Source of the DNA: Mizuhopecten yessoensis
Lineage: Eukaryota
Direction: 5' to 3'
Assembly: GCF_002113885.1 (NCBI RefSeq)
Contig: NW_018405739.1
Location: forward strand, 576,977 to 640,976
Length of the DNA stretch: 64,000 nucleotides
A program made the position numbers. Below, piece by piece: positions 12,001 through 15,000 of the stretch. The first letter of the stretch is position 1. Every line of letters starts with the position of its first letter.

Positions 12001-15000
12001 TATGTAAAGCGTGTTCTATACTGCTGGATTGATTGGCTTGTGTGGTGTTTTAAATTCTGACAAACCACAGGTAAATGTACGAGCTAGCAACAGAGGACCA
12101 TAGCAGAGACTGGGACACACTCGTTCTAGTTATCAACACTATTCGACTACCTGTTCGACAAGAATGATATAACCAACGGACAGATTTCGGATTGGAAAGA
12201 CAGTGCAATGGATTTGTTTGGTGGACAGATAGACTGGGTTTCTCAGAAAAAGAGGAATGCCATCCTGAAACAACTGTCAGAACAAAAGGAGGAGGAACGC
12301 ATGCTAGATAGGACGAAAAGGGAGTAAGTAAACATCTTAAAAACCTTCTTATTTTTAGATAACAATTTGTCTCCCAGTGTGCTTACATAATATAAATGGT
12401 GATAATCATATAGCTATTGATTGAATTAAGTTATTTATTTAAACATGAAAAATTAACTATATCTATGATATGCTTTACATTTCACATGACACTTAATGAA
12501 TATCCATGTCACAATACTATATATATACAACATGTCAAAATATTTGTCATGGAAAACTCAAACTGATTATATACCAGATGCACATTTGAATGATATTAAA
12601 GCCAATCGGTTTCAATGTGAGCTTTGATGACTGCACGTTGTCATTTCCTGTGAGTAGTTTTACCGTTGAACGGTACAACAGTTCATTGTATCTCAAGCAC
12701 AACAAGTTACGCAATAATAATAACTTTCTGTTGCCTCAGATCCATGTGTTGAACCCATTCAAGTTGAACCAATGCGAAGGAACAGTGTATTTAAACGAGT
12801 CTGTACACACAATGACTATTTACATTGATTTATACTGCCAACGGAAGACCATATTTACTCTATCACAATACGAGCACAATTACTCAAACAATTCAGTTAT
12901 TATAAGCAATCGGATCGCAATTAAATGAAAATCAAACGTTTGTGAACATGCCAAAACCTTATATGCAATTAACAATGGAGTGTACAAAAGTCAAGTAAGT
13001 TTCTTCCTGTATACCAAATAAAGACATTCCTAACTTGGAGATTTATCATGAGCTTTCTCGACGCTTGACTATATTGATAAATTGGAAATCATACTTTCTC
13101 TTTCTTTTTTAATGTTGTGGACACTGATTACAGAAACATCTGTCTCACCAAGACAATAAATTAACTGATAATGTACAATCTAAATGTTGTATCATTGATA
13201 ACAAATTGCCAACAATGTGTAATCAATAGTTCATAAAGCAGCGTAGCACTAGATTAATAGCCAGCTGTAATTTGTGTTGCTGAATAAGTTAAATATAATC
13301 TGTTTACAAATTACAGATTATTGGATGACTACAGCAGCAGATATCTTCGAAACTATGAATCACGCAAAGAACTTGAGAAGCATTGGCGAGCAGCCAGCGC
13401 GTCGAAGAAGAATAGAGAGAGAAATTAAGTGGCTATCAGACTGATGAACAGTGATATGTGATTATGATGGGCAAGGAACACACAGTAGACCAGGTGTATT
13501 ACCTACTGCTGTGTACCATGTCTTGTTGTCAAACACAAAAACTCAAGGTGTCAGAACCTTTGTCAATTCAAAATAACTTGGTTATGGTCATTGAAAAATT
13601 GTGTTTCCGATAAATGTTAATTTTGATTAGTATTATTATTTATTTAGTTGATTAATTAAGTATTGATTTATTTGAAGTGTTTAAACATACTTTTCATGGA
13701 AGAAGGGATCAACTTGGTGTCTCCATCCGCAGTAGATTATCAGTAGTATTGTTCACCAACATGACTGCAATATACCAATGATTAAATTATTTCGTTAAAT
13801 TGTGTATTCATCATGTGTCCTTAGTTTTTCTTGTTATGTCAGCATTACCAACATGTAAACTCCAACGTGTGCCTCATCTTCGTATTATATGTTATATTCT
13901 AATCATCAATAAAAAAAAAGATGTTGTATATATTAATTATCATTTTTATAATTCAGTACTGAACGTTTATAATGCCGTCATAAAATAGAAACTCTAAAGA
14001 TAGGCCTGGATGCAACAAACAAGAAAAATAACACAATAATGAACGTTACTTTCCGTACCCATTTGGTATTTACTATATATTATAAATTTGTAATACAATT
14101 ATCATAAATTAAGATGACTAAGCTACATCTATCAAACGTTTTCTCTATTCATTCTCTTGTTGTATGCAAACAAAAGATGTATCGCTTTTCGTGTTGTTTT
14201 AGCCATTCGTTGTGTTTGTTAGTTCACATTTAAAGCTTGGACATTTCCTATACCTATATATGAAAGGTTGTTTGACCACTACACTCGAGTTATCTTTCTT
14301 TTTGTACGGTTCACGTTCAAATTACACCGTTAACTCATCATCTGGATTTAGCCTCCTATTTTGTTTGTTTGTGAAGAATTCCCCTTCGTGTAGGTGGCTC
14401 ATCAAACCTGGTAGTCCACGAGATGTTCCTATAGGAGTTGACCAAGGGAAGAAAAGGAGCGTATTAACAAAACAGTTTCAGGTTGTAGATAATATTATTA
14501 TATCATACTATTAAACATATTATAATAAATCGTTTGTTAAGCTTAAGGATCCGGCACTTAAAAAAAGGTTAATTTAAACCTAAAATAGAACATCAACAGT
14601 AGTTTTGCAGTGACGAATCTACATTTTATTATAATGGGTCCTTTTCAACTGTATTGCTAGAAACAACGGGTTTCCAGAAATTGTATGACTATCGGACTCG
14701 GGACTCGTATGTAGATTTATCACTGGTTGAGAGTACTTGTCTATTCGGATCTACTCGTAACCCAAACCAAGTGGTAATACTGATTTTATCGATGATTTGG
14801 AATCATGAATGGCTGTTTTTGGCTAATTTGAGACTTTTTCTACTTCCTTTTAAATTATACCTAACCTATTTTGATAAAATATGGCACAATTAACACCCTA
14901 AACAAGAGATGAATATATTACTGGCTACAATATTTTCGATTTCTTCTTCAAGATCCACCTTGCTGATATAATCAGTATGGTGACAATGTTTGACCAGGAG

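What the first reader, a model, noticed from the sequence alone, without database searches (positions are those of the whole stretch)
12130..13460. Hidden truncated CCDC81 paralog: possible coiled-coil microprotein lacking the Cys motif
Seen: two exons absent from the ORF track align without gaps to the last two CCDC81 exons (31/57 and 14/34 identities). They keep the same phase-2 intron with consensus GTAAGT and TTACAG sites, and stop just before the parental CxxxxxCxxC tail. A faint relic of HEQCD (GATGAACAGTGAT) follows the stop. ATG 12208 would give a 75-aa protein. Inference: about 50% divergence with no indel or stop over 91 codons is hard to reconcile with neutral decay, so this may be a selected short paralog, conceivably a competitor or partner of CCDC81, a centrosome/cilium-associated protein. 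The 5' end is unresolved: upstream frames (12002 ATG TAA, 12075 MYELATE) do not join cleanly.
Basis: partly seen in the sequence, partly recalled or inferred. Interest (0 to 1): 0.72.

Follow-up and report, generated by a model that had tools for sequence, protein, structure and literature searches.

The report
Truncated CCDC81 copy in a scallop
Just downstream of a scallop's CCDC81 gene lies an old partial copy of that gene's last two exons, kept readable by selection and already listed in public databases as a 75-residue protein of unknown role.

Summary
The two exons are real: 12130-12323 and 13317-13428 (+). They match the last two CCDC81 exons at 7035-7255 and 8009-8273, with 30/57 and 14/34 identical residues and no gaps. 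The split codon and the splice sites are the same.

The copy is not hidden.

Neutral decay is unlikely. A random-substitution null left the frame stop-free in 171 of 20000 trials. From the ATG onward the copy keeps 21 of 22 deeply conserved residues, against 8 of 22 less conserved ones.

The product is only the helix that precedes the parental Cys-rich tail. The 'HEQCD relic' is no better than chance.

The 5' end stays open. The 57 nt before the ATG are in frame and 37/57 identical to the parent, yet keep only 3 of 6 conserved residues.

Best reading: a selected short helix-only paralogue (0.4). Rivals are an alternative 3' end of CCDC81 (0.3) and a recently dead relic (0.2). No expression or orthologue data could be reached. 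Interest is modest.

The parts
12130..12323 (+). Exon A of the copy. It is open in frame from a possible phase-0 acceptor (AG 12128-9, which is also the end of an in-frame TAG) to the donor GTAAGT at 12324. Similarity to the parent starts abruptly at 12151.
12208..12323 (+). First coding part of the public 75-aa record (38 codons plus 2 bases of a split codon). The ATG has G at -3 and G at +4.
12324..13316 (+). Phase-2 intron of the copy (993 nt, GTAAGT...TTACAG). It cannot be aligned with the parental intron.
13317..13428 (+). Exon B of the copy: the last base of the split codon, 36 codons and the stop TAA at 13426-8. Similarity to the parent ends at about 13422.
13781..13913 (+). The first poly(A)-signal-like hexamers after the copy's stop (ATTAAA at 13781, AATAAA at 13908). 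These are motif matches only.
7035..7255 (+). Parental CCDC81 penultimate coding exon (phase-0 start, phase-2 end, donor GTACGT).
8009..8273 (+). Parental CCDC81 last coding exon, with the Cys-rich conserved tail and a TAG stop at 8271-3. AATAAA follows at 8292.
2847..2925 (+). CCDC81 exon whose donor (after 2925) is phase 0, so it is compatible with acceptor 12130 as well as with 7035.

Best explanation
An old DNA-level tandem duplication copied the 3' part of the scallop CCDC81 gene, from inside the penultimate coding exon to inside the last one, to a site about 3.9 kb downstream on the same strand. The copy has been kept as a working two-exon coding unit. Its constrained core is the 75-codon frame from ATG 12208 to TAA 13426-8, which is exactly the protein already in NCBI and UniRef.

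Shown: the product is one long, charged helix without Pro or Cys. It corresponds to residues 552-644 of the 696-residue CCDC81 chain of PDB 8SNB. It lacks the N-terminal HU-like domains and the Cys-rich C-terminal tail.

Inferred: because the copy keeps nearly all positions that the family keeps in this helix, it probably still makes the contact that this helix makes in full-length CCDC81. That contact could be with another CCDC81 helix or with a neighbour in the ciliary or sperm microtubule lattice. Lacking the parts that anchor the parent, it would occupy or modulate that site rather than bridge it. This is the microprotein type of action.

Not shown: whether it is translated from its own mRNA (as annotated, favoured narrowly) or read as an alternative C-terminus of CCDC81.
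For: - Homology and identical intron phase.
- Nucleotide similarity is confined to the exons and has sharp edges.
- A public 75-aa record is identical to the model.
- Under random placement of the observed 109/273 differences, no stop arises in only 171 of 20000 trials, and amino-acid identity reaches 44/91 or more in 0 of 20000.
- There is no indel across 91 aligned codons, although local tandem arrays show about 0.1 indel per mismatch.
- Site-specific retention, measured where parent = P0004. In exon A from the ATG on, 11/11 family-invariant residues are kept against 8/15 others (p 0.0098). In exon B, 10/11 against 0/7 (p 0.00025; counted by hand from the alignments and the strings; p).
- Conserved residues are kept in only 3/6 cases upstream of the ATG against 21/22 downstream (p 0.022).
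- The ATG has G at -3 and G at +4.
- AlphaFold2 predicts exon A as one helix (2-63, mean pLDDT 86.7). The parental counterpart of exon B is a confident helix that ends at residue 41, about where the copy stops.
Against: - No transcript, ribosome or peptide evidence could be reached, and a database record may rest on homology alone.
- No relative of the copy type was found in any other species. Of the 9 hits in 1.84 billion representatives, 1 is the record itself, 1 is a chance phage-tail repeat and 7 are of the parental type.
- The copy evolved faster than its parent: 24 unique changes against 7, with P0004 as outgroup (p 0.003).
- Pairwise dN/dS (0.15, saturated; pN/pS 0.44) cannot by itself separate a constrained copy from a dead copy compared with a constrained parent.
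- Upstream of the ATG the frame is open and in register with the parent for 19 codons, at 37/57 nt identity. That is not expected of an untranslated leader.
- uATGs lie at 11998, 12002, 12075 and 12164.
Confidence: 0.4

Rival explanations
1. The two exons are an alternative 3'-terminal exon pair of CCDC81. Transcripts that skip 7035-8273 and its poly(A) site would splice donor 2925 (phase 0) to acceptor 12130 (phase 0). The resulting full-length isoform would end in 64 + 36 different residues and lack the Cys-rich tail.
For: - The copy lies on the same strand, 3.9 kb downstream, with no other gene found between.
- Exon A is open from an AG preceded by 9/12 pyrimidines, and the phases match.
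- The 57 nt before the ATG are 37/57 identical to the parent. The background is 16.0 +/- 3.4 with a maximum of 31 in 20000 intron pairs.
- That stretch has no stop or indel and holds the best-conserved 15-mer of the exon (13/15).
- At about 0.1 indel per mismatch, an untranslated stretch with 20 differences would be expected to carry about 2 indels.
Against: - No longer protein containing exon A was found: 12 candidates, none at E <= 0.001. This is weak evidence, because an isoform more than about 90% identical to the main one would be hidden inside its cluster.
- The family-wide start of this exon (the R-F-K-P stretch) and 9 codons are missing, and the first 7 codons show no similarity (5/21 nt).
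- Only 3/6 invariant residues are kept upstream of the ATG.
- The parent has a canonical AATAAA 18 nt after its stop.
- The public record treats the locus as a separate 75-aa protein.
Confidence: 0.3
2. A partial-duplicate relic. The fragment was once functional (or used as a coding exon) and is now unexpressed, or has died so recently that no disabling change has yet occurred. The database record would then be a homology-driven prediction.
For: - Both similarity edges lie inside parental exons (7083 and about 8112), as expected of a fragment born without its own start, acceptor or tail.
- The copy evolves about 3.4 times faster than the parent (24 against 7).
- The codon-position pattern (identity 57, 64 and 43 of 91 at positions 1, 2 and 3) can largely be produced by constraint on the parent alone.
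- The record has 1 member sequence on 1 contig.
- No expression evidence is available.
Against: - Neutral decay since the duplication is contradicted by the open frame (171/20000) and by the absence of indels.
- The donor is kept, the acceptor is kept, and the split codon is unchanged.
- 21/22 deeply conserved residues are kept against 8/22 others downstream of the ATG.
Confidence: 0.2
3. The two exons are the end of a separate, longer gene whose upstream coding exon or exons lie between 8300 and 12129 and share no similarity with CCDC81.
For: Exon A is open from a phase-0 AG. One ATG-to-GTRAG phase-0 segment exists (11037-11066, 10 codons).
Against: That single candidate is what chance would give. 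No CCDC81-like or Pfam-recognisable exon lies between 8300 and 12129.
Confidence: 0.07

Closest known systems
CCDC81 proper: the parental gene in this window, the 770-aa relative P0004, and the 696-aa CCDC81 chain of PDB 8SNB. I recall 8SNB, from no call, as the sea-urchin sperm doublet-microtubule model of Leung et al. 2023.
   Same: Exon A aligns to 8SNB residues 552-608 (E 4e-4) and exon B to 611-644 (E 0.097). The intron position and phase match the parent, and family-conserved helix residues are kept.
   Different: There are no HU-CCDC81 domains: Pfam gives 0 families for either exon, whereas P0004 hits PF14908 and PF18289. The mid-protein Cys/His motif is absent. So is the strongly conserved Cys-rich tail, which aligns between the parent and 8SNB at E 2e-26.
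MicroProteins: small single-interface proteins derived from larger multi-domain proteins that act by non-productive binding (for example ID proteins or LITTLE ZIPPER). This is recalled knowledge, from no call.
   Same: Small size (75 aa), origin by partial duplication of a larger protein, and retention of one helical interaction segment only.
   Different: No interaction, expression or phenotype is known here. The parent is a structural ciliary or sperm protein, not a transcription factor.
Tandemly duplicated alternative or mutually exclusive exons (recalled knowledge, from no call).
   Same: Same strand and same order, phase-compatible splice sites, and ancient divergence with conserved exon cores and unalignable introns.
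   Different: No transcript or annotated isoform shows such use. The duplicated unit starts inside an exon rather than at its acceptor.
Other CCDC81-family ciliary proteins (Tetrahymena CCDC81b, IJ34 and the tip protein CCDC81).
   Same: They belong to the same family as the parent through the N-terminal CCDC81/HU domain. They are described as microtubule inner or tip proteins (passages read in PMC11961760 and PMC10522465; PDB 8v3l).
   Different: Those proteins share the N-terminal domain, which is exactly the part the copy lacks.

Membership tests
CCDC81 family (Pfam HU-CCDC81_euk_1 / HU-CCDC81_euk_2) | N-terminal tandem HU-like CCDC81 domains | tested here: not met
   Pfam gives 0 families for exon A and exon B at E <= 1. 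P0004 hits PF14908 (3.6e-31) and PF18289 (1.4e-28). tblastn of P0004 finds no N-terminal exons near the copy.
CCDC81 family | Homology to the C-terminal helical region of CCDC81 | tested here: met
   In exon A, 15 of 20 near-invariant family columns are kept.
CCDC81 family | Conserved Cys-rich C-terminal tail | tested here: not met
   The stop at 13426-8 precedes it, and no similarity follows the stop (419/500 shuffles score at least as high).
MicroProtein (truncated paralogue acting through one retained interface) | Small, related to a larger multi-domain protein, retains a single interaction segment | tested here: met
   75 aa and a single predicted helix. Homology to the parent is limited to that helix.
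MicroProtein | Is expressed and binds the parent or its partner non-productively | not testable with these tools
   No transcript, proteome or interaction data could be reached.
Alternative terminal exons of CCDC81 | Same strand, downstream, phase-compatible acceptor | tested here: met
   Donor 2925 and acceptor 12130 are both phase 0.
Alternative terminal exons of CCDC81 | A transcript or annotated isoform joining CCDC81 exons to exon A | tested here: inconclusive
   The 'longer' search with exon A gave 12 candidates, none significant. Clustering at 90% identity could hide such an isoform. No RNA data are available.
Processed or unprocessed pseudogene fragment | Disabling changes or a neutral substitution pattern | tested here: not met
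   There is no stop or indel in 100 codons. The null gives 171/20000 stop-free trials. Conserved sites are kept in 21/22 cases against 8/22 for the others. The intron is retained, so the copy is not processed.

The most novel reading that the evidence does not exclude
A selected 75-residue helix-only derivative of a sperm or ciliary doublet-microtubule protein. It would act as a natural competitor or cap for the site that the C-terminal helix of CCDC81 occupies. That would make it a microprotein regulator of a microtubule-lattice component, born by partial tandem duplication in the scallop lineage.
Probability: 0.15. Interest if true: 0.6.

Novelty: new member of a known kind. Interest (0 to 1): 0.3.

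Why it matters
If it is expressed, it would be a clean natural example of a structural ciliary or sperm protein giving rise to a one-helix paralogue that selection has kept. It would also point to the helix before the Cys-rich tail as an autonomous interaction module of CCDC81, a family whose C-terminal half has no assigned function. If it is not expressed, it is an ordinary partial duplicate that annotation pipelines turned into a 75-aa protein. Either way the gene model is already public, so the gain is in interpretation, not discovery.

Tried and rejected
- HEQCD relic after the stop: at chance level.
- Homology of introns or flanks: three local alignments against shuffles, with 267, 118 and 291 of 500 shuffles scoring at least as high. 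blastn found nothing outside the exons. This is partly uninformative, because the parental intron is filled with about 135-nt tandem repeats.
- Capture by a transposon or flanking repeats: no terminal inverted or direct repeats bracket the copy. No part of 8300-16000 recurs elsewhere in the window at E <= 1e-5.
- P0002 (1638 aa, E 5e-7 to exon A): a Phage-tail_3 protein whose four internal repeats each match at 27-31%. Rejected as a chance match multiplied by the repeats.
- Further copies in the window: none.
- Fold searches against PDB with the exon A model and with the parental last-exon model: 0 matches each. Whether this helix is modelled in 8SNB therefore stays unknown.
- Rfam at gathering thresholds and a tRNA scan over the whole window: 0 hits each.
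- First-exon scan of 8274-12129: 1 strict candidate, uninformative.
- Heptad count: weak.
- Literature: 'CCDC81' with 'scallop' gave 0 papers. 'CCDC81' with 'mollus' gave 1 unrelated review, seen in the listing only. One search was badly framed and uninformative.
- Leung et al. 2023 is not held.
- The cluster look-up of the public record could not be made.

Full report
**The observation**

The window is AT-rich (about 33% G+C). Exon A runs from 12130 to 12323. It is bounded upstream by AG 12128-9, which is also the end of an in-frame TAG, and downstream by the donor GTAAGT at 12324. Exon B runs from 13317 to the stop TAA at 13426-8 and follows the acceptor TTACAG.

Within the window, the exon A peptide matches 7083-7253 with 30/57 identities, 44/57 positives, no gaps and E 5e-16. 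The exon B peptide matches 8010-8111 with 14/34 identities, no gaps and E 3e-6. All other hits have E >= 0.67.

The matched stretches are the last two coding exons of a CCDC81 gene whose 3' half fills the start of the window. tblastn with the 770-aa relative P0004 places exons at about 1075-1200, 1371-1466, 1688-1774, 2848-2925, 7035-7255 and 8009-8273. P0004 carries both Pfam CCDC81 HU domains.

Both copies split the same GA|A codon in phase 2. The copy stops 15 codons before the parental Cys-rich tail.

**It is already annotated**

I searched the splice model exon by exon and left the search with the joined exons out.

- Exon A against 1.84 billion cluster representatives gave 9 proteins at E <= 0.001.
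- Its sources are ncbi, uniref and nr. Its name is 'coiled-coil domain-containing protein 81-like [Mizuhopecten yessoensis]'. It has 1 member sequence on 1 contig of 1,488,735 bases.

By inference, the window is from the Yesso scallop (a pectinid bivalve).

Exon A against longer proteins gave 12 candidates, none significant. No long isoform ending in these exons was therefore seen. That is weak evidence, because an isoform more than about 90% identical to the main one would be hidden in its cluster. The cluster look-up for P0001 and P0004 could not be made.

**Extent and age of the duplication**

Nucleotide similarity is confined to 12154-12330 against 7086-7262 (65% of 177, no gap) and 13286-13419 against 7979-8111 (58% of 134, one gap). 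Nothing else in 10600-15000 against 5500-9800 reaches E < 0.1.

In 15-nt windows the identity jumps from 1-5 to 10-13 at 12151, and falls from 10 to 2 after 13422. Both edges therefore lie inside parental exons, at 7083 and at about 8112.

The family-wide start of the penultimate exon is absent, and so is the whole tail-coding part. No similarity above shuffles exists in the flanks, in the intron or after the stop. This makes the 'HEQCD relic' a chance match.

The parental intron carries about 135-nt tandem repeats. Failure to align the introns is therefore partly turnover, not proof of saturation. The retained intron shows a DNA-level duplication, not retroposition.

**Is it decaying?**

Evidence for constraint:

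- The blocks differ at 109 of 273 nt and 47 of 91 residues, with no indel.
- When 109 random differences were placed in the parental codons, the frame stayed stop-free in 171 of 20000 trials. Amino-acid identity never reached 44 (mean 27.9, sd 3.1).
- The strongest test is site-specific and concerns the copy's own lineage. I took columns where the parent and P0004 agree as the ancestral state.
  - In exon A the copy keeps 14 of 17 family near-invariant residues but only 10 of 23 others (p 0.014).
  - In exon B it keeps 10 of the 11 residues shared by the parent, P0004 and the 8SNB chain, and 0 of the 7 shared only by the parent and P0004 (p 0.00025). I counted these by hand from the alignments printed and the strings; the p value is.
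  - A dead copy would lose both classes alike. Gene conversion would also have kept the variable positions.

Evidence against, or neutral:

- Pairwise dN/dS is 0.15 but synonymous sites are saturated (pS 0.73; pN/pS 0.44).
- The codon-position pattern (mismatches 34/27/48, p 0.043) could come from the parent's constraint alone.
- Clustering of differences among codons is marginal (44 against 40.1 +/- 2.1; 1029 of 20000).
- Only 3 of 8 fourfold sites are identical, too few to date anything.
- With P0004 as outgroup the copy has 24 unique changes against 7 for the parent (p 0.003). Constraint on the copy is therefore relaxed or partly redirected.

**Where translation starts**

For the annotated ATG 12208:

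- Downstream of it the copy keeps 11/11 (exon A) and 10/11 (exon B) invariant residues. Upstream it keeps 3/6 (p 0.022).
- The upstream retention overall (5 of 14) equals that of the variable columns downstream (8 of 22).
- The basic patch of the family is replaced there.
- The ATG has G at -3 and G at +4.

For a start further upstream, that is exon A entered by splicing:

- The 57 nt before the ATG are 37/57 identical to the parent, as good as the 71/114 after it. The background is 16.0 +/- 3.4 with a maximum of 31 in 20000 intron pairs.
- They include the best 15-mer of the exon (13/15).
- They have no stop and no indel, although local tandem arrays show about 0.1 indel per mismatch.
- The frame closes exactly at a usable AG, and donor 2925 is phase 0.

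Limits of those arguments:

- A 26-codon open window occurs by chance in 1500 of 7698 nearby positions.
- The nucleotide identity fits neutral change in the copy if divergence per lineage is about 0.4-0.5.

I could not resolve this. I give the stand-alone 75-aa reading 0.4 and the alternative-terminal-exon reading 0.3.

**What the parent is and what the copy keeps**

- P0004 matches the 696-aa 'Coiled-coil domain-containing protein 81' of PDB 8SNB at E 1e-186, with 9 chains in that entry.
- I recall, from no call, that 8SNB is the sea-urchin sperm doublet microtubule of Leung et al. 2023. The paper is not held. I saw only its reference line in PMC10705406.
- Passages read in PMC11961760 and PMC10522465 describe Tetrahymena CCDC81-family proteins as microtubule inner or tip proteins that bind through the N-terminal domain.
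- Passages read in PMC12961275 report mouse Ccdc81 as testis-enriched and its knockout males as fertile.
- The copy aligns to 8SNB residues 552-608 (E 4e-4) and 611-644 (E 0.097).
- AlphaFold2, with a 9-row alignment, predicts exon A as one helix (2-63, mean pLDDT 86.7, lowest in the first 20 residues).
- For the parental last exon, with a 3-row alignment, residues 2-41 form a confident helix and the Cys-rich tail is below pLDDT 50.
- The copy is therefore the helix alone: charged, with no Pro and no Cys. Fold searches gave 0 matches.

Mechanism, inferred: the copy keeps the helix's conserved face and lacks both anchoring ends. It would then bind what that helix binds without bridging.

**What stayed unchecked**

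- Expression.
- Orthologous loci in other bivalves.
- The evidence behind the NCBI record.
- The 8SNB coordinates.
- Supplements of the papers.

**Context**

- The next recognisable gene is on the minus strand: an Armadillo-repeat ORF at 32352-32651.
- The virus-like stretch is a LINE-type retroelement at about 58.1-62.8 kb. I described it only and did not join or repair it.
- Two single N (42728 and 51139) were left as they are.
- Nothing in the window looked human.

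Noticed in passing
window 58152-62768 (+): A LINE-type retroelement (the virus-like stretch). It has a 436-aa first ORF with no Pfam family and a 570-aa ORF (61056-62768) with RVT_1 (E 1e-25). The nearest solved relatives of that ORF are LINE-1 ORF2p and R2 proteins. A weak endonuclease-like signal (E about 0.1) sits in a short ORF upstream in another frame. The pol-like gene is therefore not in one open frame, with at least one interruption; I did not count them exactly. 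G+C (0.42-0.45) and AT skew are raised here. I described it only.
   Followed up: partly
window 2178-2845, 3717-4329, 5791-6369: Three tandem arrays lie in CCDC81 introns: 73 nt x 9.2 (95% matches), ending one base before exon 2847-2925; 56 nt x 10.9; and 34 nt x 13-16.
   Followed up: no
window 7424-7887: About 135-nt repeats (3-4 copies, 73-90% alike) fill most of the parental last intron. They have no counterpart in the copy's intron.
   Followed up: partly
window 32352-32651 (-): A 99-aa ORF with an Armadillo repeat (PF00514, E 6e-5). It is probably an exon of a minus-strand neighbour gene.
   Followed up: no
window 36001-38000: GC skew is -0.325, the strongest in the window, with AT skew +0.13. 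Unexplained.
   Followed up: no
window 42728 and 51139: Single N at each place. Left as they are.
   Followed up: no
P0002 (1638 aa, library hit): A Phage-tail_3 protein whose four internal repeats each resemble residues 1-39 of exon A at 27-31% identity. Taken as a chance match multiplied by the repeats.
   Followed up: yes
window 12590-12928 (+), inside the copy's intron: A 112-aa ATG ORF with no Pfam family. Probably a chance ORF.
   Followed up: partly
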